Source: a virus. From it: a DNA stretch of 64,000 nt. Positions 12,586 to 64,000 of this stretch are shown here, piece by piece (the first letter of the stretch is position 1; every line of letters begins with the position of its first letter). The stretch lies in the IMG/VR virus record IMGVR_UViG_3300005253_000946; one strand, written 5' to 3'. The position numbers and the translations under genes are program-made. The notes beneath the pieces are model-generated. The model ran no database searches. It was not told the origin of the DNA and saw nothing but the letters and a program-made list of their open reading frames with translations.

Positions 12586-13404
12586 ATGAATGATCTAGCA
12601 TTAGATGAATTTGCTCACCTTCTTTTTGATGGTGAGGAAGAGGTATTAGAGAAAGAGTCTTTCGCTAAGAAGATGACTCCTATTGCCCCTCTAACTACTA
12701 CTCAACTAAGAAGTCGCCAGAAGAAAGAAGTTCAACTTTACGATACATGGAAACAGGCTCCGACTAAGCAGAACTTAACTCCGTTGATGAAGTCTTTGTC
12801 TAACATCACGAATATGTATACCCAAAGACATGCTACCAGTTGGGCTATACCAAGAAGCGCAGTGGAAGCTGAAGTTAAGATAAAGACTCTCCAAGCCTTA
12901 AACACCTTCGACCCTTCCTATGGGGTTAAGTTAAGTACACATCTCCAACATCAATTAAAATCTGTAGGGAGATTCATCAAAAAATATAATAACTTCGGTA
13001 AGATACCTGAACAAAGACAACGTAGGATTGGTGAGTTTAAACGTGCAAAGACTGAGTTACATGATATGCACGGCAGAGAACCTACTACTCAAGAGATGTC
13101 TGAATTTATGAGTTGGCCGATGTCTGAAGTAGCTTTGCTAGAAATAGAGATACGAGCCGACATTACTGGAGGAGAAGAAACAGGGGCTGTTACTACGTTC
13201 GAACGAAGTAAGGATTCTGATATTTTAAAACTTATTTATTATGAACTGACCCCAGAGGAAAAACTGGTGTACGAATACACTCTAGGCGCTCACGGTAAAC
13301 AAGAGCTTGGTACTACTGCGATAGCTAAACAGTTAAATATGGCCGCAGCGAAGGTGTCTAGAATAAAGAAGAAGATTGCTAACAAGATGCAGGTATACAC
13401 ATGA
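12586..13404 (+). CDS. RNA polymerase sigma-70 family factor (group 3, FliA/SigB/SigF-like)
   Basis: 272 aa. Region 2 ALNTFDPSYGVKLSTH (cf. FDPSRGVKFSTYA), region 3 HGREPTTQEMSEFMSW (cf. GREPT.EEIAE.LG), region 4 LTPEEKLVYEYTLG..GTTAIAKQLNMAAAKVSRIKKK (HTH). Confidence 0.9.
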   Translation: MNDLALDEFAHLLFDGEEEVLEKESFAKKMTPIAPLTTTQLRSRQKKEVQLYDTWKQAPTKQNLTPLMKSLSNITNMYTQRHATSWAIPRSAVEAEVKIKTLQALNTFDPSYGVKLSTHLQHQLKSVGRFIKKYNNFGKIPEQRQRRIGEFKRAKTELHDMHGREPTTQEMSEFMSWPMSEVALLEIEIRADITGGEETGAVTTFERSKDSDILKLIYYELTPEEKLVYEYTLGAHGKQELGTTAIAKQLNMAAAKVSRIKKKIANKMQVYT

Positions 13405-46967: not shown

Positions 46968-47339
46968 CTAGGGGTTTTTAGGTCTTGGTATTGAGTTGGC
47001 TGGTGCGAATTCTAGTCCACTGTTACGGCCTCTAAAACTTAGATACTCTTTTCGAATCTGACTCTCTGGGGAGTCAGTTATCTCTTGTAGAGCCACTGGC
47101 ATTATTTCTACTTTGACCAGTTCGTTTATACCAGGCTCTAGTGATAGAACCACTGTGATTTGTTGAGCCATCATCCCTTGGGGGCCTTGAACCATACCCA
47201 TCTGAACCAAAAGTCTGGCAGTTTTCTCTAGAACATATCTTTGTCCGAAAGAGGATCTAAGTGTTCCCACCTCTTCGTCGGAAAGTTCAGATATGTAATC
47301 TCTAGCCACTGAATCAGTTATGACAAATAGTTTGGACAT
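46968..47339 (-). CDS. Hypothetical protein
   Basis: 123 aa with GGAGG SD. Confidence 0.6.
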   Translation of the reverse strand: MSKLFVITDSVARDYISELSDEEVGTLRSSFGQRYVLEKTARLLVQMGMVQGPQGMMAQQITVVLSLEPGINELVKVEIMPVALQEITDSPESQIRKEYLSFRGRNSGLEFAPANSIPRPKNP

Positions 47340-47351
47340 TTTGTAGGCCTC

Positions 47352-49257: not shown

Positions 49258-49284
49258 CTTATGCTATTAAATCCGTACCCTTAC

Positions 49285-49313
49285 TTGACGTTAGAAGGCT
49301 ATTAGTAGAGAAT
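49285..49313 (+). promoter_or_regulatory. Possible sigma70-like promoter TTGACG-N17-GAGAAT for the head-gene block
   Basis: In the divergent intergenic region. GGAGG SD downstream before ATG 49353. Confidence 0.35.
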
Positions 49314-49352: not shown

Positions 49353-50447
49353 ATGGCATTAGAAGGTTTATTCGATCACTCTGACGATCCTACTGGTAAA
49401 ATCCTGGTAAGCAACTTAGGTCCATCTCTCGGCCCTGCTGTAATGCAGAAAGTAGCCGAGGTTAATTATAAAGAACTCCCTGATTCTGCATTCGCTCTTG
49501 TAGTAGCAGGTAAAGGTGAGACGCTTAGAAAGTTCGCTTGTATAAATCCAGAGACGACTTTAGCTTCTTTAGTTTATTTCGCAGCAAGCACTGGGCATAT
49601 ACCTACAGCTCTTGCTAAAACAGCGGCTGTAAATTTATCTGAAGCATGTAAAAGTTTTGGGTTAAAAGTTCCTTCAATGATCAGCGAGTTTAATGCTGAC
49701 GAAGATACCTTAAATGTTGTGGTTAGGGATAAGAACGATTACTCTCTTGATGATCTCTCAGGTTATTTGTTAAAAGAAGCAAGTGTTCCTAAGAACTTTG
49801 CTTATAAAGAAGAGGGTCTGTTCAGTACTTCTACAAAAGAAGCCGCTACAAGTTCGATAAAAGAATTTGAGAAGATGGCTCATACACTATCTCCTGATAA
49901 CAAGCGTGAGGTAGCCAAAGAACTGTCTACCAGATGCCAGGCTTGGGGTGTTAGTCCTAGCGAATTTATTTCTAAACATGCCTCTAATCAAAGGTCTGAA
50001 GAGAATTTAAATGTTGGCATAAACCTTAGACTAACTCGGTTAAATGATATTGAAGAGAACGAACCTCACAGAGAAGCTCTTCATAAATTAGCATCGGCTG
50101 TAAATGACTTGGAGGACAGCGAGATTGTTGATGCATTTAAAGAGATAGATCGTAGAGCTGGGTTTGACTATAAATATACTCAAGTACCTGACCCCTTCCA
50201 AAGCGTGTTTGGTTTAGCTAAAGAAGCAGGCTTTACTTTCCTACACGGAAATGACAGAGTTACCGGAGATCAGTTGGGTATACTAGCTGAGAACCCTACA
50301 GTTTTAAAGAATAACTTTACCGAGGAGTTTGTGTCAGCGTTTAAAAGTGACCCAGTTACCATCTTTGAATCGTTACCCCTGCCACAGAAGTTAGTTCTGT
50401 GCCGTGTAGCTAACGATATAGGTACTTCAAACGCCACACCAGCATAG
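49353..50447 (+). CDS. Putative head/internal virion protein rich in K-x-A motifs
   Basis: 364 aa. MQKVA, LAKTA, LLKEA, TKEA, FEKMA, LHKLA, LAKEAG. Upstream of the portal-like gene. Confidence 0.6.
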   Translation: MALEGLFDHSDDPTGKILVSNLGPSLGPAVMQKVAEVNYKELPDSAFALVVAGKGETLRKFACINPETTLASLVYFAASTGHIPTALAKTAAVNLSEACKSFGLKVPSMISEFNADEDTLNVVVRDKNDYSLDDLSGYLLKEASVPKNFAYKEEGLFSTSTKEAATSSIKEFEKMAHTLSPDNKREVAKELSTRCQAWGVSPSEFISKHASNQRSEENLNVGINLRLTRLNDIEENEPHREALHKLASAVNDLEDSEIVDAFKEIDRRAGFDYKYTQVPDPFQSVFGLAKEAGFTFLHGNDRVTGDQLGILAENPTVLKNNFTEEFVSAFKSDPVTIFESLPLPQKLVLCRVANDIGTSNATPA

Positions 50448-50449
50448 AC

Positions 50450-51337
50450 ATGAGCGATAAAGACTCTGAATTTTATATAGGTGTCCCAGGTAAGGAGTAT
50501 ATACCCGCTGATACCATACCTACTCCTGAGAGCCTGTTTATGGCACGTCTCTCCGACCCTGCTGCGCCTATAGAAGCAGATCTTCAAAAAGAGGCAGAAT
50601 CGGTCGAAGAAAAGACTTCTTACGCTACCATCATAAACAAACCGGCCGACGATCTTTCTTCTTCTAGACTTAAAGTAGGAGTCATATTCGTCGAAGACGA
50701 TATATCTCCATTGGTTTACGAAATCCTTCTGCGTCGATTGTTCGGCAATAACTGGATAGCCCCGGATGATTTGTATGAAGATGTATGGACTCCAGAAACT
50801 ATCTGGTCTGGTATAGAGGAAGAGTTTGGAGTAGAACCATCTAGGCTTACAAAAGACAAGATTCTTGCGGTACAGTTGATGCGTAATTCAGACGATTATT
50901 GGAACGATATAGATATATTTGAGAAGATAACCCAAGCTTTTAATAATAACATTCCTATATTTACTCTAAGACAAGAGGCGACTATATCTCAAATTCTTTG
51001 GAGTGTGACGTTAGCCAACCTATTTGAGAAAAATACCTTTAGCCACGAGGTCAGAGCTTATATAGCTGCTGCCTTTTTCAATAGTGGTTTATGGTGGGCA
51101 CCTCCCTTAATAAAATTTGCACAACCTCTGTTAGGTATACTAGCTACACAGAACGAGTTACCGGCCTTTGAACCGTCTAAAATATCTAAAACTTACAATC
51201 AGGTTAAAGAAATGCCTTCAGATTCTGTAAGATTTGAAGAGGATGTTATTGGTATACAGGTACAAAAACTTCTTTTAGCTAGAGACTATGTTAGTAAGAG
51301 GAGTGCAGAGCTGCATGGTCAGATAGCGGAGTTATGA
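50450..51337 (+). CDS. Conserved-looking hypothetical protein, putative head morphogenesis
   Basis: 295 aa. WTPETIW..KILAVQL..YW..FEKI..AFNN..FSHEVRAYIAA. N-terminal LQKEAES. Confidence 0.6.
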   Translation: MSDKDSEFYIGVPGKEYIPADTIPTPESLFMARLSDPAAPIEADLQKEAESVEEKTSYATIINKPADDLSSSRLKVGVIFVEDDISPLVYEILLRRLFGNNWIAPDDLYEDVWTPETIWSGIEEEFGVEPSRLTKDKILAVQLMRNSDDYWNDIDIFEKITQAFNNNIPIFTLRQEATISQILWSVTLANLFEKNTFSHEVRAYIAAAFFNSGLWWAPPLIKFAQPLLGILATQNELPAFEPSKISKTYNQVKEMPSDSVRFEEDVIGIQVQKLLLARDYVSKRSAELHGQIAEL

Positions 51338-51340: not shown

Positions 51341-53224
51341 ATGTCTTCTTTGGTAACTGTAGGTAGTACTTCTAGGTTTAATAGACGAACCCGGTCCGAC
51401 TTAGCTAGTCGAGGGATCATTCGTTACCCTCACCCATTTTTTAATGTAGCTCAGACATATCTTCCTAGTTCGATAAAAGAGTTGTTTGATCTTTTAGAGT
51501 ATTACTTTAGCTCTACAGGATTTTTAAACGCGGCTATAATGAATATGGCCGCTTACCCTATAACTGATCTGTCTTTCGAGCACGATAATGAAGACATTAT
51601 TTCTAGATACGAATTGTTGTTTGAAGAAAACTTAAAGATCTATGACTTCCAAATAGAGATAGGTATGGATTACTTCAATTATGGTAATGCCTTTGCCTCT
51701 ATTAATTACCCGCTACAGAAGAGGCTCAAGTGCCGTAACTGTAAGAAGTACAGCAATATCGAAGAAGTGAACTTTAAGTTGGTTGAAGGTAAGTTTCAAT
51801 TTAAAGGCGCTTGTCCAAACTGCAAAGAAATATCTTTGATGGATCCAGAAGATGTTTACCGTAAATCAGAGAAGGAACTGAATCTGATACGTTGGAACCC
51901 GCATGATATAGGTATTATATACAACCCTCTTACACATAAAAATGTGTACACATACACTATACCGGCAGCTACCCGAAAGCTAATAAAAAAAGGTGATCGT
52001 AATACTATAAAAGATCTACCTAACATTTTTATTGAGGCTGCTATTAAGAATAAACCGATTATTTTTAATCCTGGATCAATCTATCATTTCAAGCGACCTA
52101 GTATCTCAGGTAAATTCAATGGATGGGGAACTCCATTACCTATGCCTGTTTTACAAGACCTGTTCTATTTAAAGGTATTACGTAAGGCTAATGAAGCCAT
52201 TGCTATGGAGCACATTGTTCCTCTACGTGTTATTTACCCATCCGGCCAAACTGAGCACGGTACAGCCTATTCATCGTTAAGCTTAAGTACTTGGAAGACT
52301 AACGTAGAGACTGAGATTAAACGTTGGAGATTGGACCCCAATCATATCCCTATCTTCCCATTACCTATAGGACTGCAATCTTTTGGTGGCCAGGGTAAGG
52401 CCATGATGCTTACACAAGAAATACGTATGAGGATGGAAGAAACTATCGCCGGTATGGGTGTACCACGAGAATTTGTATTTGGTGGCCTGACATACTCTGG
52501 TTCTAGTATGAGTATTAGAATGTTGGAGAACTTATTTATACGGTATCGTACCTCTCAAAATGGTTTCCTCAAATGGGTATTAGAACGTGTCCATGTGTAC
52601 CTAGGATGGCCTTCTGTATCTACTAGAATGACTGACTTCAAAATGGCTGATGATCTGCAGAAGAAGCAGATTCTCATTACACTTAATGCATCGCAGAAGA
52701 TATCAGATCACGCTTTGTTGGACGAATTCGGTTTCGACTATGATGAACAATCTGCCATGCTTGAGGACGAGCTAAAAAAGAAACTTCATTTCAGGAAGGT
52801 AGAGAACGACATCAACGCGATGCTGCAAGGGCAGTCTATGTTGATACAACAACGTTACCAACAAAAGCTACAAGAGCTTATAGGAAGTATCGGAGAGGCT
52901 GGAGCAACTGTGCCAGAAGGGGTACAAAATCAAGCCCAAGAAGCCCAACAAGTATTAGACAGAGGTCAAGAAGCCGAAGATGGTGCTGTGAATATAGATG
53001 CCCGCAATCTTCTTAACTACTACGCTAAAGAGATGTCTGAAATGAATGAGGCTCAGAAACAGGCTGTTCTAGACAAAATGAAGGGTGAGATGCCTGAACT
53101 TCACGGTAAGCTTATACAGATGCTCACTGGAGGAGATCCTTCCAAGTCAGAAAACAAACCACTACCAGAAATCAAGCCGCCACGTAGAAAAGTAGGAGGT
53201 CAGGTAGCTGGTTCTACTAGCTAA
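51341..53224 (+). CDS. Putative portal protein with inserted zinc ribbon
   Basis: 627 aa. IGMDYFNYGNAFASI (portal-like D...YGNAF), LIRWNP..I, IYHFKR..GWG.P.., TIAGMGVPREFVFGG, then a helical crown-like region. CxxC..CxxC insert. Confidence 0.7.
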   Translation: MSSLVTVGSTSRFNRRTRSDLASRGIIRYPHPFFNVAQTYLPSSIKELFDLLEYYFSSTGFLNAAIMNMAAYPITDLSFEHDNEDIISRYELLFEENLKIYDFQIEIGMDYFNYGNAFASINYPLQKRLKCRNCKKYSNIEEVNFKLVEGKFQFKGACPNCKEISLMDPEDVYRKSEKELNLIRWNPHDIGIIYNPLTHKNVYTYTIPAATRKLIKKGDRNTIKDLPNIFIEAAIKNKPIIFNPGSIYHFKRPSISGKFNGWGTPLPMPVLQDLFYLKVLRKANEAIAMEHIVPLRVIYPSGQTEHGTAYSSLSLSTWKTNVETEIKRWRLDPNHIPIFPLPIGLQSFGGQGKAMMLTQEIRMRMEETIAGMGVPREFVFGGLTYSGSSMSIRMLENLFIRYRTSQNGFLKWVLERVHVYLGWPSVSTRMTDFKMADDLQKKQILITLNASQKISDHALLDEFGFDYDEQSAMLEDELKKKLHFRKVENDINAMLQGQSMLIQQRYQQKLQELIGSIGEAGATVPEGVQNQAQEAQQVLDRGQEAEDGAVNIDARNLLNYYAKEMSEMNEAQKQAVLDKMKGEMPELHGKLIQMLTGGDPSKSENKPLPEIKPPRRKVGGQVAGSTS

Positions 53225-53529: not shown

Positions 53530-53559
53530 TTGACCTAACATTTTAGGATGTGGTATTAC
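53530..53559 (+). promoter_or_regulatory. Possible sigma70-like promoter upstream of the RNAP gene (TTGACC-N18, TG-n-TATTAC)
   Basis: -35 at 53530-53535. Extended -10 TGGTATTAC at 53551-53559. Confidence 0.4.
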
Positions 53560-53607: not shown

Positions 53608-56600
53608 ATGGCGCATCTAAACCCAGCCGACCAATTCGAATCTCTTAAAAAAAGGGTAGTCCAAACCTTACAGACTACTGTGTTCCCTATAACAGGTGGT
53701 AAGCACACATTAGAGGCTAAAAAGATTTGGGTTGATGACTCACTATCTATCAATGATTTAGGATCACAGAAAGATGCTAAACTAAAAGGTGGTAGCTGGA
53801 CTGTACCTGTAAACGCTCACCTGGTACTCAAAGATTCGAAGACCGGAAAAATTATAGACGAGCGGCCGAAGATCCGTATTATGAATCTTCCAAAGGTTAC
53901 TCGCAGGTTCTCTTTTATTGTTGGAGGAACAGAGTATCAACCTAAAGGGCAGTTCAGGCTTAAGTCTGGTGTGTACTCCACAATCAGTGGTAAGGGCGAA
54001 GTTATAGCTAAGGTAAACATGGTAATCGGGCTTAAAGGATGGGGAGGAAGTTCACATGTAAAACTAGATCAGGCCAACGGAATCTTTTACTTCTTGCCTG
54101 AGACTTCTACAGGTACTTCAATACTCCTGTACCCTATACTCAAAATGATGGGTATCGGTGATGCCCAGATGCAAAGATATTGGGGTAAGGAATTACTAGA
54201 AACTAATCGAACCTTTAGTTCTGGTAAAGAAGAACGAAATCTAAACAAGCTATACGCAAAACTTACTGGTGAGAAATCTACTGACCAAGATGCAGTAAAG
54301 AGTCTTTTATTAGACTCATTTAAAGGTACTAAGCTTAGGGAAGACTCTACAAAAATAACTCTCGGTAAGGCTGTATCTAAGCTAGATGGAGAAGCTCTTC
54401 TGCTTACTTCATCTAAGCTGATTAAGTTGTCAAAAGGAGAAGCCAAACCGGATGACACAGATTCACTGGCCTTCAAAGACTTTGCTGACATAGACGATTT
54501 TATCTCGGAACATATCGAGGCAAAGGTGAAGACGATCCATCGCAAGATCAAGAATAACCTTAATGACAAAGTTGCTATTAGGGATATAGTCTCGTCTTCC
54601 TATTTTACCGAACCTGTAAGAAGTTTCTTTACTAGTACACAGTTGTCGGACAAGCCGGAGCAGGTTAACCCTCTTGAGATGATTAGCGGCCAATTAAAAA
54701 CCACCATTATGGGAGAAGGAGGAGGTATTACTGATCCCAATAAAATACGACCGAATCTGCGTCAGGTTAATCCTTCTCACTTAGGATTCCTAGACCCTAT
54801 CCATACACCAGAAGGAGATAAGACCGGTATAACATTGAACCTACCTATCGGTGCTAGTAAAAAAGGTAATGAGCTACGTACAACTTTTTACTCTATTAAA
54901 CGCAAAAAACTTGTGAAGGTGTCCCCTCTGGAGTCCATTCATTCCGTAGTAGCTTTTGCTGATCAATACATTAAAGAGTCTGATGGGACATATACTCCTA
55001 AAGAAAAAATAGTAAAAGTAGTCTCTAAAGATGGTGAGATACAAAAAGTCCCAGCTACTACGGTTGATTATGTTATACCAAGCCCGTCCGTGCTTTTTGA
55101 TGTCACTACAAACATGATACCATTTCTGAGTAACAACTCAGGTGCTAGAGCCTTCATGGCTTCTAAACAGATAGAGCAAGCTGTCAGTTTAGTACACAGA
55201 GAAGAACCTTTAGTTCAGGTAAGAGCGTCAGACAAATCAGAACATACTTTTGAAAGAGCTGTAGGACGAACCAGTGCTCACATATCCCCTATTGACGGCA
55301 AAGTAACAAGGGTAACTGAAACAGACATCTATGTTCGAGGGGACAATGGTAAGAGTATAAAAGTACCTTACTACAATAATTTCCCGCTCAATAGTAAACA
55401 GATGTTACACGCCACACCAGTTGTAAGGGCTGGGGACACGGTTACAAAAGGACAGTTATTGGCTGACTCTAACTTTACTAAAAATGGTGTGTTGTCATTA
55501 GGAGTAAATTTGGATGTAGGCTACATGCCGTTCAAAGGATACAACTATGAAGATGGTATAGTTATATCGGAAAAAGCTGCTGAGAAGCTGACCTCTGAGC
55601 ACCTTTATAAATTCTTAGTTACTGTGGGTCCAAATACTGAATTAAGTCTTAGGAAGTTTACTGCACACAGTCCTAATATACTTTCAGTAAAAAACTTAGA
55701 GAAACTAGACTCTAGAGGTGTTGTAAAGAAAGGGTCGACTGTTTATGAGGAAGATTATCTTGTAGCGGTCCTCAATAAAGTGGAGCTTACTAAAGAGCAA
55801 GTAATGATGCGTAAGTTTAAAAGCTCTCTGATTTCTGCTTATAGTACTAGTAAGAGTATTATGTGGGATAAGAGATTTCCGGGAACTGTCACTGATGTAT
55901 CGGTATCTGGTAAAGATGTAGTTGTCTATGTAAAAACACAAGAGCCTATGATTGTAGGAGATAAACTGATCGGCAGACACGGAAACAAAGGTATTGTCAC
56001 AATGATAGTACCTCAAAATGAGATGCCTACAACTAAGAGTGGAAAACCTTTAGAAGTATTATTGAACCCTACAGGTGTACCTGGACGTATTAACCCTGGC
56101 CAGGTCTTAGAGACTATGGCAGGTAAGATTGCTGATAAGATTGGAAAGCCTCTAAAAATGGTTAACTTTGATGGCAAGAATGCTGTTGACCATTTAATTA
56201 AAGAACTTAAGAAACATAAACTATCTGACACTGAAGACGTCTTAGATCCAAAGACCGGACGTTCAATAGGTAAAGTAATGGTAGGTAAGCAGTATATGCT
56301 TAAGCTTATCCACCAGATAGATAAGGGTACTTCTACTCGCTCTACAGGCCCTTATGAGAGTACATCAAGAGCACCAGCTCGTGGAGGTAAAGCTAGTGCT
56401 AGTAGGTTAGGAGAACTGGGCAACTACGCGATGCTGGCTCATGGAGCTAAAGCTAACTTGTTTGATGCCTATAACTATAAAACAGAGCGAAACGATGATG
56501 TTTGGTACGCTTTAGTTGAAGGCGCTCCACTTCCTAAAACTAAACCAGCATTTGTGTTTGACAAGTTTACCGGGTATCTAAACGCTCTCGGAGTAAATGT

Positions 56601-59600
56601 AGAAAAGAAAGGTACTAAATTTCAGTTAATCCCTTTCACAGAGAAGCAGATACTAGATATGAGTAGCGGTGAACTCAAAGACGCCGGACAAATGGTTAAA
56701 GGAAAGAGCTTGAAGCCTATTAGAAATGGCCTGTTTGATGAAGAGCTGACTGGAGGCCTTGAAGGAACCAAATGGACTCATATAGATCTCGGAGAGAGGT
56801 TCGCTAATCCTGTATTTGAGAAACCACTGAAGTATATTCTAGATATATCTGAGAAGGAGTTCGAGGATATTAAGAATGGTAAGACTGTAGTTAAAGGCAA
56901 AACTGGAGGAGATCTCTTCTACGATATGCTGAAAAAGGTAGATGTAGATAAAGAGCTTAAAGAAGCTATAGAGAAAGCTAGAAAGTCTAAAGCAGCCACG
57001 ACATCCAAAGTTCATCGTCGTATTCGATACTTGAAGTCTTTGAAAGAGTTAGGTATCAGACCAGAAGAGGCTTACGTTAAAAAATCTCTACCTGTATTAC
57101 CTCCAGCTTTTAGACCGTTGACCATTACTGAAGAAGGTAACATACGAGATCGAGGTCTCAATGGTATTTACAAAGGAGTGTTTTTACTGGCTGACAAATT
57201 CAAAGAGGCTAAGAAGGTAGGATTACCTGATGAGGATTTAAATAAGCTACGTACTGAAATATACGATGCTCTACAAGCATTTACAGGTATAGGAGGTCAT
57301 ATAAGTATTGGTGGCAAAGGTCGTAGACCAAAAGGTATCATGGAAATACTAGGTGCCAGTAAATCTGGTGCAGAACAACGTGTGTCTGCTAAAGAAGGTT
57401 TCTTCCAGAACAAGGTACTGAAGCGTCGACAAGATTTTACAGCTCGAACAACTATTGTTCCAGAACCAAGGTTAGGTTTAGATGAGATAGGTATACCTGA
57501 GAACCTTGCTTGGGAACTATACAAACCATTTATCATTAAAGATCTGACTAAAACTCTTTTTATGGCCCCTCTTAGAGCTAGAGAGGAAGTCTCGAAGAAG
57601 AGTAAGTTGGCACGTACAGCGTTAAGTAGAGTGATGAAAGATAGGCCAGTACTGGCTAAGCGAGATCCTGCTTTACACAAATATAACGTACAAGCGTTTG
57701 ATCCTATCATTACTGCTGGCCGTGCTATCAAGATTAACCCTCTTGTAACTAGTAGCTATAACGCTGACTTCGATGGTGATAAAATGCCTATATTCTTACC
57801 TATTTCTAAAGATGCGGTTGCAGAAGCACATAGATTAAAGCCTTCTAATAACCTGTTTTCTGCAGCTCACGGTAAGTTGATGTACAAACCGACACAAGAA
57901 GCACAGTTAGGTTTGTTCCTACTTACTAAAGAAGGTAAGAAGACAGGTCTGTCTTTCACATCCCAAAAAGATATTATGACAGCCTTTAAACAACGCCGTC
58001 TTAAAATAGACGATGTTGTTACCCTTAAAGGTAGAAAGACAACTATCGGTAAAGAGATAATAAGAGGAATGTTACCTAAAGGTATGCAGACTAAAGAAAT
58101 GTTAAGGGTTGTGAAGAAGACTTTCGATAGGAACGTGCTCACTGAATTCTTAAACATAGCTGCAAAACGAGATCCAGGAAGGTTCGGGGTAATAGTCAAT
58201 AAGATAAAGAACCTAGGTAATGAGAAGGCTACTGGGTACTCATTTAAGTTAGCCGATTTTAAACCTATTAACAAAAGCACAAGAGATAGACTGTTTAAAG
58301 CTGCTGAGAAAGAAGCTGCCAAGATCGACAAAGATAAGTCTTTATCTAAAGATGAGCGTAATGAAAAGAAGGCTGCTGTATTTATGGAGGTAGTTAAAAC
58401 GTTAGACAAAAAGATGATCGATCACTTTAAAAGTTCTGACTCCGGGATAGGTGCTTTATTATTATCTGGTGCTGTAAATAAGCCCGCTCAAGTAAGATCT
58501 ATGATCAGTGCTCCTGGTGTTGTAACTGGACCAGATGATAAACCTCTACCAGTTCCAGTAACAAAATCCTACTCTGAAGGACTGGATTTAGGTAGTTACT
58601 GGAATTCTATGTCTGCTGCACGTAAGACTATGATACAGAAAACTATTGAGGTGCGTAATCCTGGATATTTAACAAAACAGTTGATGAACACAACGATAGG
58701 TATGGTAATATCTGAGGCTGATTGTGGTACTAAAAGGGGTATTTCTTTAGAGACCGAAGATCCTGAGATCATAGGTCGGGTACTAGCTAATGGAGTTAAA
58801 GTAGGCTCCATCTCAGTCAGGCGTGGGACTGTTATAACTCCAGAAGTTATTACCCGTCTGATTAATAATAGAATACCTAAGATAGTTGTTCGATCACCTA
58901 TGCGTTGCGAATCTATAAACGGCGTATGCCAAAAATGTTATGGAAAAAATGAGACTGGAGCGTTCCCTGAGATAGGCACTAATGTTGGAGCCATAGCTTC
59001 ACAATCTTTAGGGGAACCATCAACTCAGTTAATAATGAGAGCCTTCCATACAGGAGGTACTGTATCTGCTAAGAGTAATGTATTAAATACCTTTGACCGG
59101 GTGTCTCAATTAGTACGCCTACCAAAAACAGTACCGGGATCTGCTACTTTAGCTGGTTCTGACGGATCTATTGAAAGTATCAACAAAGCTCCGGCCGGTG
59201 GGTGGAATGTAAGTTTAGGAGGTATAGCTCATTACATCCCTCAAGACAGAGGTTTGAGAATAAAAAAAGGTCAGACAGTTAAAAAAGGGTCACCTATCAG
59301 TGGTGGGGTTATAAACCCAAGAGAGTTGTTAGAATTAAAAGGTATCGACGCTACCCAGAATTATATAGCTGGTTCACTGTACGATTCCTACAAGACAGAG
59401 GGGCCTATTAATCGTAGACATGCCGAGATTATGACTAGAGGTATTACGAATATCTCTCAGGTCAGAGACCCTGGAGGTAATGAGGTTGTGGTTCCCGGAG
59501 ATATTGTACCGACGACTTTGGTAGAGAATTTTAATCGCACAGGCAGGATTAGAACTGTAGCTCCGGTAGATGCTTTCAATTCTACTTTACTAGAACCAGT

Positions 59601-59913
59601 TGCTGGTTTGAGTAGAGGTAAACGTCTTAATGAAGACGACATACAAAAACTTAAGAGGCATGGTATACAAACTGTTAAGGTAGCTGCAGATCCTATAATT
59701 TCTGAAATTAATCTCAAAGGGGTTGAGATGGCCCCGTTAGCTGTTAGTGAAGACTGGATGGCCAGAATGAACTTCAACCGTTTAAAAGAGACTGTGCTCG
59801 AAGCAGCAGGTCAAGGTTGGATTTCTGATGTACACAGCTCTAACCCTATACCGGCTTTAGCTTACGGAGCTGAGATAGGTAAACCACCGGAAGATAAACC
59901 TTGGGCGTACTAG
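53608..59913 (+). CDS. rpoBC: DNA-directed RNA polymerase, fused beta-beta' single polypeptide
   Basis: 2101 aa. Beta motifs: QLS..EQVNPL, SHLGFLDPIHTPEG, GARAFMASKQIEQAV, GYNYEDGIVIS, GDKLIGRHGNKG, LNPTGVPGRINPGQ, YMLKL.H, RLGELG. Beta' motifs: LPVLPP.FRP, KEGFFQ..VLKRRQDF.AR, YNADFDGDKM (57760-57780), GYLTKQL, DCGT, C..C..C zinc site, SQSLGEPSTQLIMRAFHTGG. Confidence 0.98.
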   Translation: MAHLNPADQFESLKKRVVQTLQTTVFPITGGKHTLEAKKIWVDDSLSINDLGSQKDAKLKGGSWTVPVNAHLVLKDSKTGKIIDERPKIRIMNLPKVTRRFSFIVGGTEYQPKGQFRLKSGVYSTISGKGEVIAKVNMVIGLKGWGGSSHVKLDQANGIFYFLPETSTGTSILLYPILKMMGIGDAQMQRYWGKELLETNRTFSSGKEERNLNKLYAKLTGEKSTDQDAVKSLLLDSFKGTKLREDSTKITLGKAVSKLDGEALLLTSSKLIKLSKGEAKPDDTDSLAFKDFADIDDFISEHIEAKVKTIHRKIKNNLNDKVAIRDIVSSSYFTEPVRSFFTSTQLSDKPEQVNPLEMISGQLKTTIMGEGGGITDPNKIRPNLRQVNPSHLGFLDPIHTPEGDKTGITLNLPIGASKKGNELRTTFYSIKRKKLVKVSPLESIHSVVAFADQYIKESDGTYTPKEKIVKVVSKDGEIQKVPATTVDYVIPSPSVLFDVTTNMIPFLSNNSGARAFMASKQIEQAVSLVHREEPLVQVRASDKSEHTFERAVGRTSAHISPIDGKVTRVTETDIYVRGDNGKSIKVPYYNNFPLNSKQMLHATPVVRAGDTVTKGQLLADSNFTKNGVLSLGVNLDVGYMPFKGYNYEDGIVISEKAAEKLTSEHLYKFLVTVGPNTELSLRKFTAHSPNILSVKNLEKLDSRGVVKKGSTVYEEDYLVAVLNKVELTKEQVMMRKFKSSLISAYSTSKSIMWDKRFPGTVTDVSVSGKDVVVYVKTQEPMIVGDKLIGRHGNKGIVTMIVPQNEMPTTKSGKPLEVLLNPTGVPGRINPGQVLETMAGKIADKIGKPLKMVNFDGKNAVDHLIKELKKHKLSDTEDVLDPKTGRSIGKVMVGKQYMLKLIHQIDKGTSTRSTGPYESTSRAPARGGKASASRLGELGNYAMLAHGAKANLFDAYNYKTERNDDVWYALVEGAPLPKTKPAFVFDKFTGYLNALGVNVEKKGTKFQLIPFTEKQILDMSSGELKDAGQMVKGKSLKPIRNGLFDEELTGGLEGTKWTHIDLGERFANPVFEKPLKYILDISEKEFEDIKNGKTVVKGKTGGDLFYDMLKKVDVDKELKEAIEKARKSKAATTSKVHRRIRYLKSLKELGIRPEEAYVKKSLPVLPPAFRPLTITEEGNIRDRGLNGIYKGVFLLADKFKEAKKVGLPDEDLNKLRTEIYDALQAFTGIGGHISIGGKGRRPKGIMEILGASKSGAEQRVSAKEGFFQNKVLKRRQDFTARTTIVPEPRLGLDEIGIPENLAWELYKPFIIKDLTKTLFMAPLRAREEVSKKSKLARTALSRVMKDRPVLAKRDPALHKYNVQAFDPIITAGRAIKINPLVTSSYNADFDGDKMPIFLPISKDAVAEAHRLKPSNNLFSAAHGKLMYKPTQEAQLGLFLLTKEGKKTGLSFTSQKDIMTAFKQRRLKIDDVVTLKGRKTTIGKEIIRGMLPKGMQTKEMLRVVKKTFDRNVLTEFLNIAAKRDPGRFGVIVNKIKNLGNEKATGYSFKLADFKPINKSTRDRLFKAAEKEAAKIDKDKSLSKDERNEKKAAVFMEVVKTLDKKMIDHFKSSDSGIGALLLSGAVNKPAQVRSMISAPGVVTGPDDKPLPVPVTKSYSEGLDLGSYWNSMSAARKTMIQKTIEVRNPGYLTKQLMNTTIGMVISEADCGTKRGISLETEDPEIIGRVLANGVKVGSISVRRGTVITPEVITRLINNRIPKIVVRSPMRCESINGVCQKCYGKNETGAFPEIGTNVGAIASQSLGEPSTQLIMRAFHTGGTVSAKSNVLNTFDRVSQLVRLPKTVPGSATLAGSDGSIESINKAPAGGWNVSLGGIAHYIPQDRGLRIKKGQTVKKGSPISGGVINPRELLELKGIDATQNYIAGSLYDSYKTEGPINRRHAEIMTRGITNISQVRDPGGNEVVVPGDIVPTTLVENFNRTGRIRTVAPVDAFNSTLLEPVAGLSRGKRLNEDDIQKLKRHGIQTVKVAADPIISEINLKGVEMAPLAVSEDWMARMNFNRLKETVLEAAGQGWISDVHSSNPIPALAYGAEIGKPPEDKPWAY

Positions 59914-59919
59914 CTAAAA

Positions 59920-59951
59920 GAGGGGTGGGGACATTAAGCCCCCACACCCTC
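59920..59951. terminator. GC-rich hairpin between convergent RNAP and H1-like genes (probable terminator)
   Basis: GAGGGGTGGGG-loop-CCCCAC(A)CCCTC with one bulge, preceded by AAAA (U-tract on the - strand). Confidence 0.65.
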
Positions 59952-59971
59952 CCACTCTTACTAGGAGACTC

Positions 59972-60751
59972 CTACGAGGCTTTCGCCATCGTCTTTTTAG
60001 GAGCTGCTTTTTTATTGGTGGTCGGTTTCTTCTTCGTTTTCTTGGTTGAGGTTTTTGCTTTAGCTACAGGTTTCTTCGCAGTCTTTTTAGCTGCTTTCTT
60101 GGCCGGGGCTTTCTTTTTAGTTTCAACGGTTTTGGTTTCTTTAACCGACACCACTTTACCGGTTGTTTTGTCCGTTGATACTGTCAGACCTGCTACTTGG
60201 ACTAGCTCTACTTCTCCAGAAGCTTCTTCTGGTAGAAGGCTGCGACCAGGCATCAAGATATCAATCATACGTCGGCTGGTATCTATTGGTTTGCCTTTTG
60301 AGAGATCCTCTGATGCTTTTGAGGCACCGATGGCGACTTCAAGTATACCAGCGATAACCAGCATCTTTGTCTCAGCGTGCCAGTCCCTATCTACATTGTT
60401 ATTGAATTCAATGTGCGCCCTGTCGTCAGGAATTCTGGCTTGCACCTCCACATCTATACCCATGTGGGGCATTGGCGGTAGGAAGATGGTACATCTAAGA
60501 CCGTGGCCTCTAAAATCTCTAAAGACCTGGACCCCTTGTTCGATGTCTAGAAAGTCAGAGTATGTAATAAATTCCACAGGGGCCTTAAATCTACCGAGGT
60601 TGATTAAATACCTTTTCAGGTTTTCTACCAGCCACGACGCATTTTTGTGTCCGTTGTTTCTGATCCACACAGACCTTTCTTTCACAAATTCGGTTACTTC
60701 GCTTTTTTCAAATCCGGCCGCTTCTAATTGGTTTTTTATGTCTGTTGACAT
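59972..60751 (-). CDS. Protein with globular N-terminal domain and histone H1-like Lys/Ala-rich C-terminal tail
   Basis: AGGAGG SD. Tail KKKAPAKKAAKKTAKKPVAKAKTSTKKTKKKPTTNKKAAPKKTMAKAS. Confidence 0.8.
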   Translation of the reverse strand: MSTDIKNQLEAAGFEKSEVTEFVKERSVWIRNNGHKNASWLVENLKRYLINLGRFKAPVEFITYSDFLDIEQGVQVFRDFRGHGLRCTIFLPPMPHMGIDVEVQARIPDDRAHIEFNNNVDRDWHAETKMLVIAGILEVAIGASKASEDLSKGKPIDTSRRMIDILMPGRSLLPEEASGEVELVQVAGLTVSTDKTTGKVVSVKETKTVETKKKAPAKKAAKKTAKKPVAKAKTSTKKTKKKPTTNKKAAPKKTMAKAS

Positions 60752-60836
60752 GAGCTATCCTCCTAGGAGAGTGTTAGAGTTTCAGGCTAATTGCCTTCAT
60801 AGTTCTTATAACAATTTTTAGGACGGAATTTTAGCG

Positions 60837-61835
60837 ATGAGACGCCAATCAAAACCTTGGTTTCCTGTTTCAGATTACAGGATGCCGGAGATTATTTACT
60901 GTAGAGTCAGTAATGTGGATCTTGATAAGTACACACTTACAGCTGTAGGGGACATCGGTAATAGATCCTTCTTCAGTCTTCCGTGGGCATCTCCTTATGT
61001 CAACATAAATCAAGGGCAAGGAACTTATTGTATCCCAGAAGTAGGTTCTCGCGGATATGTCGTAATACCCTCCGACAACACAGACCCTTTCTTTTTGACA
61101 TTTATAATGCCTCAGAGTACCGATTTTTATCGAGGTGGTAGAAGTAAAAAACTCAATCCAGGAGATCAAGTTATGATTTCTGAGGATGGTAACGGTGTTA
61201 TAGTACGAAAAGGTGGTGTGACTCAGATAATGTCTACACCTATCTGCCAGAGGATGTTTATACCTATTAACAACTTCATTAAAGACTACTGTGAAAACTT
61301 CCAATTATTTAGTGCTGGAGGAACTATGACTTGGGTAGTTAACAAAACACTTTTAAATAAAACAGCATTCGAACTAAGAGCTAAGACACAAGCAGAATTA
61401 CCGCCTACAATAAAGTTTGCTCTTGGAGATCTTACAGGCTTATTAGATGAGCTACCTATGACAGGTGTAACAGCTCCTGCAGATATTCACGGATTACTTT
61501 CTATTGGCGAAGGTCTATTTACGATGAGAATAGACGCTGTAGGTAACTGCGAGATGAAAGGGTTAGAAAGTTCTGAGACCTGGCTTACAGGTAAGACAAT
61601 CACAGCCCCTGTTATAAAATTCGGATCAATAGCTGCCTCATCTCCGGCCGCTAAAGGTGATGCCGTTATTCAACTACTTACTAGCTTCTTAAACGCCTTT
61701 ATAAACAATTCAGAGATATCTACGCTCGGCAATATGGGTGCTCCGGTAGTCACTAATCCAGCAATTATTACTGAGCTGACTACTATTCTAGGACAAGTAA
61801 GCACTATAGCTTCCCTGAAAGTGTTGATCGAATAA
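60837..61835 (+). CDS. Baseplate central spike-like protein (gpV/gp45/gp5 OB-fold type)
   Basis: RVSNVDLDKYT..LPWASPY..GQGTYCIPEVGSRGYV; LNPGDQVM..GNGVIVRKGG beta-repeat region; C-terminal AAKGDAV. Confidence 0.6.
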   Translation: MRRQSKPWFPVSDYRMPEIIYCRVSNVDLDKYTLTAVGDIGNRSFFSLPWASPYVNINQGQGTYCIPEVGSRGYVVIPSDNTDPFFLTFIMPQSTDFYRGGRSKKLNPGDQVMISEDGNGVIVRKGGVTQIMSTPICQRMFIPINNFIKDYCENFQLFSAGGTMTWVVNKTLLNKTAFELRAKTQAELPPTIKFALGDLTGLLDELPMTGVTAPADIHGLLSIGEGLFTMRIDAVGNCEMKGLESSETWLTGKTITAPVIKFGSIAASSPAAKGDAVIQLLTSFLNAFINNSEISTLGNMGAPVVTNPAIITELTTILGQVSTIASLKVLIE

Positions 61836-62284: not shown

Positions 62285-64000
62285 ATGGAAGCCCAAATAA
62301 GACCGGATCTATTTTTAAACCACGAACTTAAGTTCGAAAAAATGGCTGCTGCTCAACTGAGTGACTATGCAGGCAAATGGGATCAAGAGATTCTGCAAGA
62401 GGCCTACAAACAGGTTCCGTATCTAGGTGATTATCAAACTACACTTGTACTGGACCGAAAAGATGAAGAGCGTGGAACAGCGTTAGGTTATATCTCGGTT
62501 AAAACAAAAACAGGTACTACTGAGAGCACTAGTGGAGCCACCACTAAGGACTTTGATGTAGTCATTCCTATAATCGTTAAAGACAATAAGCTTTTTAACC
62601 TAGATATATTACGAATTAGTACGAAGTTCTTTCCGCTTACTCAAGATCGTTTAGCTGAAGCTCTCTTCAATCCCAGCATTTTTGAACTGATTACCAAGAA
62701 TCGTCACTTTGATACGTCTATTCTAGATGTCTTAGAGCCAGCAGTGAAGGATAGGTATGGGTTCGGTTTAGGGGTAACTAATCTCCTTAAACAAGGTTCA
62801 GCAAACGTTACTCCTATTTCTTTGCTTAAAGAAGCTACTGCGTCTATGATAGATACTGATAAGAATGTGTTTTTAAATTCGCTAGACGACAATATTGTGC
62901 ACGCAATGACGAACAATGACACAATTGGTTCACTAGACATTATTGTTGCAGCAGAACCTAAGTTTACAAAAGAAGCGTCTGCAATTGCTGTGTTGTCTGT
63001 TTCCCCTGACGTTATTTCTTTACGTAAAACACGTCCTAATTCGTACATCTTAAAGACAGCTAATGCAGAGGGTTATGCCCCTATCACTCTTAATATAAAC
63101 AAAGCAGAAGCTGTCCTTGCAACTAACGAAGAGTTTGTTAAAGAAGCAGACCTTACACCACTTTCTGTAGAGAAGACCTCTAGACCAGCTCAGTTAGAGG
63201 ATTTGATTAAAAAACCTCAGAGTAAAAAATTAGATAACAGTAATATTATTGTCGCTAAAGACGCAGGATCTGGCAGGTCTACTATAGGTATGTACTTCAA
63301 TAGGATAGTTGATTTTGACAACGTATTACTCCCTGTGTGTTTATTCACAAACCTTTCTCAGTACAGCTACCAAGAAAGTATCGCTGGAGATAGTCTGAAA
63401 AAGTTATATTTAGATGACAGAGGTAGTAAGAAATTATTTAAGATTCCTGCTGCTGGTGACCTTGGTGTTTTTGTAGTAGACGAAAATAAAGCCACTAACT
63501 ACGACTCAGTGGTGACAATCCCTCTTAAAATTGTCACTGTTATACGAGACCTTGGTGCTACTAAATACGTCTGTACCACTATCGAAGACAATCCAGTTAC
63601 TCTTATCCCTGATTCTAATGTTACAAAGTTCATGGCTACGGGAGAAGGATCTTATTTATATCCTTCAGAATTAAAGTTCCTACCTATAGGCACCCAACCT
63701 GTGGGGTTAATAAAAGATTCTGCTGAGTTTGACAAAATAGCTTCACTAGAAGGTGTTTCTAGACGTGTAGTTATTAAGTCATCTGGAGGCTCTTATACTC
63801 TTAGTGGTAATCCGGTAGACACACTAGATTCGAAGGACAAAGAGTTTCTTAACAAAGAAGCTGCCAGGATGGTTTTAGGAGCTGCGGGGTTTAGTTCTTC
63901 TATGTCCAACCCTGTTCTAGATACTGCTGACAGAACTAGAAGAACACAATATCTTGATGGTGCCGTCAGAATAGTTAATCCTCCTATGTCCAAAGTAGCT
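62285..64000 (+). CDS. Large putative head/internal virion protein rich in K-x-A motifs (3'-partial, missing from the ORF track)
   Basis: AGGAG SD. I translated 572 codons with no stop up to the window end: MEAQIRPDLFLNHELKFEKMAAAQLSDYAGKWDQEILQEAYKQVPYLGDY...IPIIVKDNKLFNLD...MSKVA. Confidence 0.85.
   Translation, partial: MEAQIRPDLFLNHELKFEKMAAAQLSDYAGKWDQEILQEAYKQVPYLGDYQTTLVLDRKDEERGTALGYISVKTKTGTTESTSGATTKDFDVVIPIIVKDNKLFNLDILRISTKFFPLTQDRLAEALFNPSIFELITKNRHFDTSILDVLEPAVKDRYGFGLGVTNLLKQGSANVTPISLLKEATASMIDTDKNVFLNSLDDNIVHAMTNNDTIGSLDIIVAAEPKFTKEASAIAVLSVSPDVISLRKTRPNSYILKTANAEGYAPITLNINKAEAVLATNEEFVKEADLTPLSVEKTSRPAQLEDLIKKPQSKKLDNSNIIVAKDAGSGRSTIGMYFNRIVDFDNVLLPVCLFTNLSQYSYQESIAGDSLKKLYLDDRGSKKLFKIPAAGDLGVFVVDENKATNYDSVVTIPLKIVTVIRDLGATKYVCTTIEDNPVTLIPDSNVTKFMATGEGSYLYPSELKFLPIGTQPVGLIKDSAEFDKIASLEGVSRRVVIKSSGGSYTLSGNPVDTLDSKDKEFLNKEAARMVLGAAGFSSSMSNPVLDTADRTRRTQYLDGAVRIVNPPMSKVA

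What the first reader, a model, noticed from the sequence alone, without database searches (positions are those of the whole stretch)
53608..59913. Single-chain, miniaturised beta-beta' RNA polymerase in a tailed phage, inside the head-morphogenesis block
Seen: one 2101-aa ORF carries the beta motifs (about aa 1-1000) followed with essentially no linker (LNALGVNVEK|KGTKFQLIPF, near 56610) by the beta' motifs (about 1100 aa), including the catalytic NADFDGD, bridge helix, trigger loop and the second zinc site. Established: E. coli beta plus beta' is about 2750 aa; the cellular fusions in Helicobacter and Wolbachia are full size; phiKZ/AR9 RNAPs are split into several genes; crAss-like single-chain RNAPs are far more diverged from cellular enzymes. 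From memory, a metagenomic clade of Caudovirales (mReC) encodes such bacterial-like RNAPs, and I know of none characterised biochemically. Inference: with no alpha or omega gene in the window, this may be a two-protein (fused core plus sigma) transcription machine.
Basis: partly seen in the sequence, partly recalled or inferred. Interest (0 to 1): 0.85.

Follow-up and report, generated by a model that had tools for sequence, protein, structure and literature searches.

The report
Single-chain bacterial-type phage RNA polymerase
An uncultured large tailed phage encodes both big subunits of a bacterial-type RNA polymerase as one 2101-residue protein. It belongs to a large, apparently undescribed phage family that carries its own sigma factor, has no alpha or omega subunit, and probably brings the enzyme into the cell inside the virus particle.

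Summary
Window 53608-59913 (+) is one intact 2101-aa ORF: a complete bacterial beta (aa 1-1003) joined without a linker to a complete beta' (aa 1004-2101). All catalytic motifs are present. Both halves fold as full bacterial beta and beta' (pLDDT 88 and 86; Foldseek E 1e-75 and 1e-63).

It is neither an artefact nor host DNA:
- At least 132 of the 150 best 50%-identity clusters have the same fused form.
- The portal-RNAP gene order is conserved.
- In trees the phage proteins form one group (support 100) outside bacteria of at least 12 phyla, and apart from the sampled published mReC clade, whose beta and beta' are separate genes.

"Miniaturised" overstates the case. The protein lacks lineage-specific inserts, the beta' N-terminal zinc finger and short tails. 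It is about 8-9% shorter than the smallest bacterial cores sampled.

The 11 complete or near-complete relatives checked each have one RNAP gene and no alpha or omega. Ten of them have an orthologue of the window's sigma.

Virion delivery is inferred, not shown. It rests on Salmonella phage Arash virion proteomics (PMC10585845), the gene's position, and virion-like cysteine depletion: four Cys, all zinc ligands.

This scan has met the same family on other genomes. I found no paper describing the fused enzyme. I rate it a new variant of a known kind.

The parts
53608..59913 (+). Single-chain beta-beta' RNA polymerase gene (2101 aa, P0001)
   Evidence: ORF and translation. Pfam and PHROG hits. 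PDB sequence hits to bacterial beta' at E 1e-105. Folds of both halves.
53608..56616 (+). Beta module (aa 1-1003). It includes a changed rifampicin-pocket region (nt 54625-54714), a flap-tip-like helix (55783-55818) and the catalytic GDK...GRHGNKG motif (55957-55992).
   Evidence: Alignment with E. coli RpoB. AF2 model pLDDT 88; Foldseek TMq 0.72-0.78 to bacterial beta chains.
56578..56637 (+). Beta C-terminus / beta' N-terminus junction, with no linker
   Evidence: The junction is conserved in the family consensus.
56617..59913 (+). Beta' module (aa 1004-2101). Features: site of the deleted N-terminal zinc finger (56728-56790), clamp helices (57157-57282), NADFDGD (57760-57780), bridge helix (58597-58689), zinc site II holding the protein's only four Cys (58723-58938), trigger loop (from 59011) and a lineage-specific insertion (59548-59685).
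   Evidence: AF2 model pLDDT 86; Foldseek TMq 0.70-0.82 to bacterial beta' chains.
12586..13404 (+). Sigma-70-family factor (272 aa), the probable initiation partner. It is the orthologue of Arash Gp10.
   Evidence: Pfam Sigma70_r3 and PHROG 351. PDB sigma F 1l0o_C matches aa 101-265. Orthologues in Arash, D69 and 9 of 11 IMG/VR relatives. Arash Gp10 was found in virions.
51341..53224 (+). Portal protein gene immediately upstream of the RNAP gene; this gene order is conserved
   Evidence: 31% identity, E 3e-89 to Arash Gp204. 28-41% identity to the ORF upstream of the RNAP gene in 13 relatives. Atlas portal clusters score 0.93 by features, with structure TM 0.57-0.74.
49353..51337 (+). Two conserved ORFs (364 and 295 aa) that open the plus-strand operon ending with the RNAP gene; function unknown
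   Evidence: No Pfam or PHROG hit. Homologues sit in the same position in relatives.
53530..53559 (+). Promoter-like element (TTGACC, 18 nt, TATTAC) in the 383-nt gap before the RNAP gene
   Evidence: Read from the sequence. Similar TTGAC-N17 elements precede 22553 and 49353. This is anecdotal: sigma-70-like sites are not enriched.
59925..59945 (-). GC-rich hairpin with a T-run on the minus strand. It is a terminator-like site between the RNAP gene and a convergent minus-strand ORF (59972-60751).
60837..61835 (+). Conserved downstream ORF (332 aa), possibly a baseplate V / central-spike-like protein
   Evidence: Homologues lie downstream of the RNAP gene in 10 relatives. Atlas features score 0.96 to clusters partly carrying Phage_base_V, and structure TM is about 0.5. 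Lead only.

Best explanation
The gene encodes the catalytic core of a phage-owned, bacterial-type, sigma-dependent RNA polymerase made as one polypeptide.

Shown:
- A complete beta module and a complete beta' module are joined head to tail at the point where the two subunits' termini meet in cellular enzymes.
- The catalytic residues, bridge helix, trigger loop, clamp helices, flap-tip-like helix and second zinc site are kept.
- The beta' N-terminal zinc finger is deleted.
- No alpha or omega gene exists in the window or in complete genomes of relatives.
- Each relative has one RNAP gene and, in 10 of 11, an orthologue of the window's sigma factor.

Inferred:
- The covalent link replaces the alpha-dimer assembly platform.
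- The enzyme binds the phage sigma (12586-13404) through the retained clamp helices and flap tip, and transcribes phage genes independently of host RNA polymerase.
- The rifampicin pocket is changed at positions equivalent to E. coli D516, H526 and S531, so the enzyme is probably rifampicin-insensitive.

Inferred more weakly: core and sigma are packaged in the virion and enter the cell with the DNA to start early transcription. A second sigma, seen in Arash, could then redirect the same core later in infection.
For: Architecture, motifs and folds.

The family is real and large. One search lists more than 90 full-length fused homologues at 39-43% identity. In one search the top 150 50%-identity clusters all have E below 1e-190, and 132 of them are at least 1990 aa. 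47 fused ORFs were found in IMG/VR.

The phage group is monophyletic and lies outside bacteria (SH-aLRT 100).

Alpha and omega are absent while controls are positive. Sigma co-occurs with the RNAP. There is one RNAP locus per genome.

Virion delivery:
- In Arash virion mass spectrometry, Gp206 has the most spectra (3516; 128 unique peptides). Gp216 has 1210 spectra and sigma Gp10 has 467. The second sigma, Gp196, is not listed (PMC10585845).
- The gene order portal-RNAP is conserved, and the terminase gene lies 9 kb downstream in the nearest relative.
- The RNAP has 0.19% Cys, like the window's large virion-type proteins (0.18%) and unlike its replication enzymes (1.31%) or bacterial beta plus beta' (13-36 Cys). 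All four Cys are zinc ligands, and 74 of 92 relatives also have exactly four.
Against: - There is no biochemical or transcriptomic datum for any member.
- The Arash virion list holds 116 proteins, including ribonucleotide reductase and kinases, so the preparation carried non-structural proteins. Abundance there is not proof of packaging.
- The RNAP has no N-terminal extension that could act as a capsid-targeting leader. It starts 24 aa inside the bacterial beta N-terminus, and its first helix is part of the fold.
- Phage sigma factors can also serve host core enzyme, as in T4-like phages (PMC7824862).
- One complete relative (G010) shows no orthologue of this sigma.
- Divergent alpha- or omega-like proteins would escape Pfam models.
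- No phage-specific promoter motif was found in the window.
Confidence: 0.6

Rival explanations
1. The enzyme is not packaged. It is a middle/late RNA polymerase made after infection. Early genes are read by host RNA polymerase, and the RNAP signal in Arash virion preparations is carry-over of a very abundant late protein.
For: The Arash particle proteome contains many obviously non-structural enzymes. Three operon heads in the window carry host-like TTGAC-N17/18 elements with a weak -10. No leader peptide is seen on the RNAP. The gene is co-transcribed with late-type virion genes, so new enzyme would appear late.
Against: Gp206 tops the spectral counts, above the major capsid protein, with 128 unique peptides. 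Its partner sigma Gp10 is present, but the second sigma Gp196 is not. The cysteine content matches the virion-type proteins rather than the intracellular enzymes of the same phage. An enzyme made only from a late operon could not help express earlier genes. With one RNAP per genome, that would limit its use to late genes.
Confidence: 0.25
2. The enzyme is a hybrid. The fused chain still needs host alpha dimer, and perhaps omega, to fold and work, as the natural Helicobacter fusion and engineered E. coli fusions do.
For: The fold is so close to bacterial beta and beta' that alpha-docking surfaces may persist. Cellular fusions coexist with alpha (own knowledge). A cellular fusion of similar size exists in a Paceibacterota MAG.
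Against: The family's members appear to come from very different habitats. Cultured members infect Salmonella and Vibrio; the others come from marine, sediment and human-associated samples, but only sample identifiers were seen, not sample descriptions. One conserved enzyme would then have to fit many different host alphas. The beta' C-terminal tail, which according to own knowledge contacts omega in bacteria, is missing. Other phage multisubunit RNAPs work without alpha or omega (PMC7598289, PMC13282480).
Confidence: 0.13
3. It is an artefact: host rpoBC contamination, a mis-assembly that joins two genes, or a decaying pseudogene.
For: No reads are available to check the junction. The window's DNA was not found in IMG/VR or the phage collection.
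Against: The same collinear fusion occurs in well over a hundred independent clusters and contigs. The neighbours are phage genes in a conserved order. The best bacterial matches reach only 25-30% identity. The trees place it in a phage-only group. All catalytic residues are intact.
Confidence: 0.02

Closest known systems
RNA polymerase of Salmonella phage Arash (Gp206 + Gp216, sigma Gp10; PMC10585845) and of Vibrio phages D69/D148/D181
   Same: They belong to the same protein family: 32-33% identity over 89% of the length, and they are sister to the core fused clade in the tree. Beta is fused to beta'. A portal gene lies just upstream. They have an orthologous sigma, no alpha or omega and one RNAP per genome.
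   Different: There beta' is cut after the position of window residue ~1460 into a 1525-aa and a 606-aa protein. The two are separated by 0.6-4.7 kb of small genes, with a homing endonuclease annotated in the matched region of D148 and D181. The window's enzyme is one chain. The catalytic loop reads DYDGD in Arash and D69. The Arash paper annotates the two proteins as beta and beta' and does not describe the fusion.
mReC: multisubunit-RNAP-encoding Caudovirales (Weinheimer & Aylward 2020, PMC7481178)
   Same: These are uncultured large tailed phages with RNAPs recognisably similar to bacterial beta and beta'. They branch outside cellular clades.
   Different: Beta (1000-1487 aa) and beta' (887-1391 aa) are separate proteins in all ~85 supplementary rows read, and several contigs carry two sets. 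In my beta' tree, 26 small split beta' proteins form their own group (support 100), apart from the 33-row fused group. That split group includes two contigs that match named mReC contigs by exact length. The other mReC subtypes were not sampled.
phiKZ / AR9 virion and non-virion multisubunit RNAPs (PMC7598289, PMC7824862)
   Same: They are phage-encoded beta/beta'-type enzymes without alpha or omega, and one set is packaged in the virion.
   Different: Those are split into four or five polypeptides, are far more diverged, lack a sigma-70-family factor and come in two sets per genome. Here there is one chain, one set and a canonical sigma.
crAss-like phage single-chain RNAP
   Same: Both double-psi beta-barrels sit in one virion-associated polypeptide.
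   Different: The mReC paper reports no recognisable sequence similarity to COG0085 or COG0086 for that enzyme. The window's protein aligns end to end with bacterial beta and beta'.
Cellular beta-beta' fusions (Helicobacter, Wolbachia from own knowledge; a Paceibacterota MAG found here, L037)
   Same: The join has the same topology: beta C-terminus to beta' N-terminus. The Paceibacterota protein is nearly as compact, at 2281 aa.
   Different: Those are typical bacterial sequences that group with bacteria in both trees. They sit among housekeeping genes (rpsF, ssb). Their Pfam scores are much higher.

Membership tests
Bacterial-type multisubunit RNAP core (beta + beta') | Two catalytic barrels: beta' NADFDGD and the beta GDK...GRHGNKG lysines | tested here: met
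Bacterial-type multisubunit RNAP core (beta + beta') | Full beta and beta' folds, including lobes, flap, clamp, bridge helix and trigger loop | tested here: met
   AF2 pLDDT 88 and 86. Foldseek E 1e-75 and 1e-63, TMq 0.70-0.82 to bacterial chains. Motifs.
Bacterial-type multisubunit RNAP core (beta + beta') | Beta' N-terminal zinc-binding domain (four Cys) | tested here: not met
   25-32 residues are deleted and no Cys is present, across the whole family.
Bacterial-type multisubunit RNAP core (beta + beta') | Second beta' zinc site | tested here: met
   Cys 1706/1767/1774/1777 align with E. coli C814/C888/C895/C898.
Bacterial-type multisubunit RNAP core (beta + beta') | Alpha dimer and omega subunits encoded alongside | tested here: not met
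   No PF01000, PF01193 or PF01192 match above cut-off in the window or in 16 relatives' records (PF01193 was searched in only 5 of them). Controls were positive in 14 of 14.
Bacterial-type multisubunit RNAP core (beta + beta') | Initiation through a sigma-70-family factor | tested here: inconclusive
   A sigma gene is present and co-occurs with the RNAP, and the docking elements are retained. Binding was not tested.
Fused phage RNAP family (Arash-like) | Falls within one phage-only group in RNAP trees | tested here: met
   20 of 20 phage rows lie on one side of a branch with support 100. In the beta' tree the group has 33 rows and support 100.
Fused phage RNAP family (Arash-like) | Beta fused to beta' without a linker, with the portal gene directly upstream | tested here: met
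Fused phage RNAP family (Arash-like) | Cysteines restricted to the four zinc-site-II ligands | tested here: met
   Four Cys in P0001. 74 of 92 uninterrupted relatives have exactly four.
Fused phage RNAP family (Arash-like) | Present in virions | not testable with these tools
   Known only for Arash, by mass spectrometry.
mReC (PMC7481178) | Separate beta and beta' genes, and placement in the mReC RNAP clade | tested here: not met
   The window has a single fused gene. It falls in a separate group from the sampled mReC small-beta' contigs. The other mReC subtypes were not sampled.
phiKZ/AR9-type phage RNAP | Beta and beta' each split into several polypeptides; no sigma-70-family factor | tested here: not met
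   One chain. Only weak PHROG hits to those families, 1e-6 to 1e-30, against 1e-116 for its own family. Sigma is present.

The most novel reading that the evidence does not exclude
A self-sufficient two-component transcription machine: a single-chain beta-beta' core plus one sigma-70-type factor. It assembles without alpha or omega, is carried in the capsid and injected with the DNA, and runs the whole phage programme by switching sigma factors. It would be the simplest known sigma-dependent cellular-type RNA polymerase, and it is widespread in nature.
Probability: 0.4. Interest if true: 0.85.

Novelty: new variant of a known kind. Interest (0 to 1): 0.68.

Why it matters
Cellular-type RNA polymerases are thought to need an alpha (or Rpb3/11) platform to assemble. 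Known phage exceptions are either split into many pieces or diverged beyond easy comparison.

This enzyme aligns residue by residue with bacterial beta and beta', keeps the sigma-docking elements, and yet comes as one chain with no alpha, no omega and no N-terminal zinc finger. If active with its sigma alone, it would give:
- a minimal, genetically simple model for sigma-dependent initiation;
- a natural test of what alpha, omega and the zinc finger are for;
- a compact orthogonal transcription module.

Cultured relatives (Arash, Vibrio phages D69/D148/D181) make the key experiments feasible now. The family is very diverse: the 150 best-scoring 50%-identity clusters, the most the tool lists, all belong to it. 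More than half of those clusters carry insertions of the size of the inteins mapped in 29 relatives, so the family is also a rich record of intein and homing-endonuclease traffic.

Tried and rejected
- An exact-match search for the window in IMG/VR and a megablast against phage records found nothing. No whole genome is held, so the rest of this phage could not be searched. Complete relatives were used instead.
- A contig-length coincidence suggested that homologue P0020 lay on a named mReC scaffold. The contigs turned out to be different, and the mReC scaffold has separate beta and beta' genes.
- Sigma-70-type promoter and terminator scans around the gene showed no enrichment over shuffles. 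A shared k-mer search over 13 intergenic regions gave no common motif.
- A 54-aa antisense ORF between the portal and RNAP genes has the same length and place as one in a relative, but shows no similarity.
- The minus-strand ORF after the RNAP gene is unrelated to Arash gp207c and has no Pfam hit.
- Pfam does not recognise the Arash or window portal. The portal assignment rests on homology to Arash Gp204, the Atlas search and the conserved position.
- No intein sits at the Arash split site, so the split is not explained by inteins.
- A T7-type RNAP search (PF00940) in relatives was negative but had no positive control.
- Rfam and tRNA scans of the window found nothing.
- One tree script returned no answer; its kept tree was read back in later calls.

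Full report
**1. The observation**

Window 53608-59913 (+) is a single open frame of 2101 codons with an ATG start.
- Pfam places RNA_pol_Rpb2 domains 3 and 6 at residues 351-926, and Rpb1 domains 1, 2, 3 and 5 at residues 1114-1849.
- Against PDB sequences the C-terminal half matches bacterial beta' chains at E about 1e-105.
- In an alignment with E. coli RpoB and RpoC, the last residues of beta face residues ~999-1003. The first residues of beta' start at 1004, so there is no linker.
- These elements are all in place: the beta catalytic lysine motif, NADFDGD (1385-1391), the bridge helix, the start of the trigger loop, the clamp helices and a flap-tip-like helix.

**2. The fold**

I folded the two halves on alignments of 63 sequences, made of family members plus 20 bacterial subunits.
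- Beta half (1-1010): pLDDT 88, pTM 0.84.
- Beta' half (1006-2101): pLDDT 86, pTM 0.80.
- Foldseek against the PDB returns bacterial beta chains over the whole length (E 1e-75 to 1e-70, TMq 0.72-0.78) and bacterial beta' chains (E 1e-63 to 1e-58, TMq 0.70-0.82).

Both modules are therefore complete bacterial-type subunits, including the N-terminal lobes of beta that Pfam does not score.

**3. How small is it?**

Against E. coli (2749 aa), most of the missing length is the lineage-specific inserts: beta SI1 (221-357), beta SI2 (934-1037) and beta' SI3 (946-1100). Also missing are part of the jaw, the beta' N-terminal zinc-binding domain (65-96), residues 125-149 and the C-terminal 44 residues.

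Against 18 diverse bacteria, segments present in at least 80% of them but absent here add up to only 40 residues in beta and 88 in beta'. The zinc finger and the stretch after it are the largest. The protein has its own ~45-residue insertion at 1981-2026.

Among 66 bacterial rpoBC operons fetched, the smallest beta plus beta' sums are about 2276-2310 aa. The enzyme is a bacterial core stripped of optional parts and the zinc finger. It is about 8-9% below the cellular minimum sampled, not a drastic miniature.

**4. Not an artefact, not host DNA**

- A word-indexed search of 5.8 billion proteins lists more than 90 full-length relatives of 2039-2110 aa at 39-43% identity and 100% coverage. They lie on contigs up to 200 kb. 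A further 29 longer ones carry inteins.
- An exhaustive HMMER search of 50%-identity representatives with the beta half gives 150 listed hits, all below E 1e-190. Of these, 53 are 1990-2130 aa, 79 are longer and 18 are shorter.
- The nearest relative (P0123, 2090 aa) is only 50% identical over the beta half, so this window holds a deep branch of the family.
- The best matches in one genome per bacterial species are ordinary rpoBC operons at 25-30% identity.
- Gene order is conserved in relatives: helicase (minus strand), two unknown ORFs, portal, RNAP, then homologues of 60837-61835 and 62285-63997.

**5. Phylogeny**

A concatenated beta plus beta' tree had 52 rows and 2155 columns (LG+G4, quick search). 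All 20 phage rows fall on one side of a branch with SH-aLRT 100 and a stem of about 1.1 substitutions per site. They are apart from 32 bacterial rows of at least 12 phyla. Within the phage group:
- a 2241-aa fused protein (L013) is basal;
- Arash plus Vibrio phage D69 are sister to a 17-row core clade;
- the window's protein is an early branch of that core clade.

Because the basal and core members are fully fused, the split within beta' in Arash and D69 is most simply a secondary event. Small genes lie in that gap, and a homing endonuclease is annotated within the matched RNAP region of D148 and D181.

A beta'-only tree had 84 rows and included IMG/VR loci. It resolves three groups, each with support 100:
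- 26 small stand-alone beta' proteins, including two contigs whose lengths equal named mReC contigs (149,482 and 152,423 bp);
- bacteria;
- a 33-row fused group containing the window.

The trees have no outgroup and use a simple model, so they show separateness, not origin.

**6. Relation to the literature**

The mReC paper (PMC7481178) lists separate beta and beta' proteins in every one of about 85 supplementary rows I read, often with two sets per contig. It mentions fusion only for crAss-like phages.

The Arash paper (PMC10585845) annotates Gp206 and Gp216 as beta and beta' and reports them in virion mass spectrometry, without noting the fusion.

A 2021 jumbo-phage genomics paper, a 2026 review and full-text searches for fused rpoBC terms turned up no description of this family. 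The library does not hold most subscription journals, so this is absence in what I could search. Earlier notes of this scan record the same family on other genomes with the same closest relatives. I reached Arash independently.

**7. Partners**

No alpha (PF01000, PF01193) or omega (PF01192) match above cut-off occurs in:
- the window's 56 scanned ORFs;
- the complete genomes of Arash and D69;
- three partial relatives;
- eleven further IMG/VR records. Nine of these are rated at least 90% complete and two have terminal repeats. PF01193 was not searched in these eleven.

The same searches ring in 14 of 14 control genomes.

Every one of these records has exactly one RNAP catalytic locus. This differs from phiKZ-like phages and from the mReC contigs that carry two sets.

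The window's 272-aa sigma-70-family protein scores Sigma70_r3 in Pfam and aligns to sigma F over regions 2.4-4. It has orthologues in Arash (Gp10), D69 and 9 of the 11 IMG/VR records, including 8 of the 9 near-complete ones. Arash has a second sigma (gp196) that is not in its virion list.

**8. Virion delivery**

Evidence for:
- Arash mass spectrometry: Gp206 gave 3516 spectra and 128 unique peptides, Gp216 gave 1210 spectra, and sigma Gp10 gave 467 spectra at 100% coverage.
- The RNAP gene is the last gene of a plus-strand operon with the portal. In the nearest relative the large terminase gene lies 9 kb downstream.
- Cysteine content. The protein has four Cys in 2101 residues (0.19%), all ligands of zinc site II. 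74 of 92 uninterrupted relatives also have exactly four. Bacterial beta plus beta' have 13-36. Within the window, the large virion-type proteins of the 1-32 kb block have 0.18% Cys and the replication enzymes 1.31%.

Evidence against:
- The Arash preparation also contained many metabolic enzymes.
- The RNAP shows no N-terminal leader.

I put virion delivery at a little over one half.

**9. Mechanism proposed**

The covalent join of the beta C-terminus to the beta' N-terminus substitutes for the alpha-dimer platform. The sigma docks on the retained clamp helices and flap tip. The holoenzyme transcribes phage DNA independently of the host enzyme. The rifampicin pocket differs at the positions of E. 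coli Q513, F514, D516, H526 and S531, so the enzyme is predicted, not shown, to be insensitive to the drug. With a single core per genome, and two sigmas in Arash, temporal control by sigma exchange on the phage core is the simplest scheme. All of these steps are inference.

**10. Verdict**

The finding is real and belongs to a large, coherent phage family whose single-chain nature I could not find described. It is a new variant of known kinds: phage multisubunit RNAPs and cellular beta-beta' fusions. It is not categorically new. Its interest lies in the testable claim of an alpha-free, sigma-dependent, possibly injected single-chain core.

Noticed in passing
relatives P0037-P0121 and P0124-P0267, mapped to window residues ~402, 662, 787-825, 951-960, 1056, 1392, 1776, 1810-1814: The RNAP family is riddled with inteins or LAGLIDADG insertions at its most conserved sites, including inside NADFDGD, inside the zinc-site CxxC and inside the trigger loop. 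79 of the top 150 cluster representatives are longer than 2130 aa, some up to 4739 aa. The window's own gene has none.
   Followed up: partly
L037:172-7017 (Candidatus Paceibacterota MAG, DATJQA010000074.1): This is a cellular fused rpoBC of only 2281 aa, followed by rpsF and ssb. It groups with Saccharibacteria in both trees, not with the phages. It is a compact cellular beta-beta' fusion outside Helicobacter and Wolbachia.
   Followed up: partly
window 1-32000 (+) versus 32000-49300 (-): There is a seven-fold difference in cysteine content between the plus-strand block of large PKD-domain/virion-type proteins (0.18%) and the minus-strand replication module (1.31%). This is a usable compositional marker of extracellular proteins in this phage.
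   Followed up: partly
window 59901-60821 (+) and 59972-60751 (-): The TTG-started plus-strand ORF that overlaps the RNAP stop codon is probably spurious. The overlapping minus-strand ORF (259 aa, ATG start) is followed by a hairpin plus T-run at 59945-59925, and local AT skew reverses. The RNAP gene therefore ends its operon facing a convergent gene. That ORF has no homologue or family hit.
   Followed up: partly
window 22520-22548, 49285-49313, 53530-59: Three heads of plus-strand operons carry TTGAC(T/G/C), a 17-18 nt spacer and a weak -10 (TATCGT, GAGAAT, TATTAC). The sample is too small for statistics, and sigma-70-like sites are not enriched overall.
   Followed up: partly
L063:9896-16907 (MAG labelled uncultured Gammaproteobacteria, 135-kb contig): Overlapping beta (1072 aa) and beta' (1275 aa) genes sit on a long branch at the base of the bacterial side of both trees. 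This may be a reduced symbiont or a mis-binned phage contig.
   Followed up: no
L108:6070-9441: In the nearest relative, the portal gene next to the RNAP gene itself carries an intein (1123 aa; Intein_splicing plus LAGLIDADG_3).
   Followed up: no
L109:641-4005 (protein P0129) and loci L153, L134: A few members of the fused clade are secondarily split. P0129 stops at the beta/beta' junction, and a new ORF starts 72 nt later. L153 has a stand-alone 1026-aa beta' nested among fused sequences.
   Followed up: partly
window 38996-39271 (-): A small ORF in the replication module encodes a CxxC...CxxH zinc-ribbon-like motif. One window ORF gave a weak TFIIB zinc-ribbon Pfam hit (E 9e-4), but which ORF it was went unconfirmed.
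   Followed up: no
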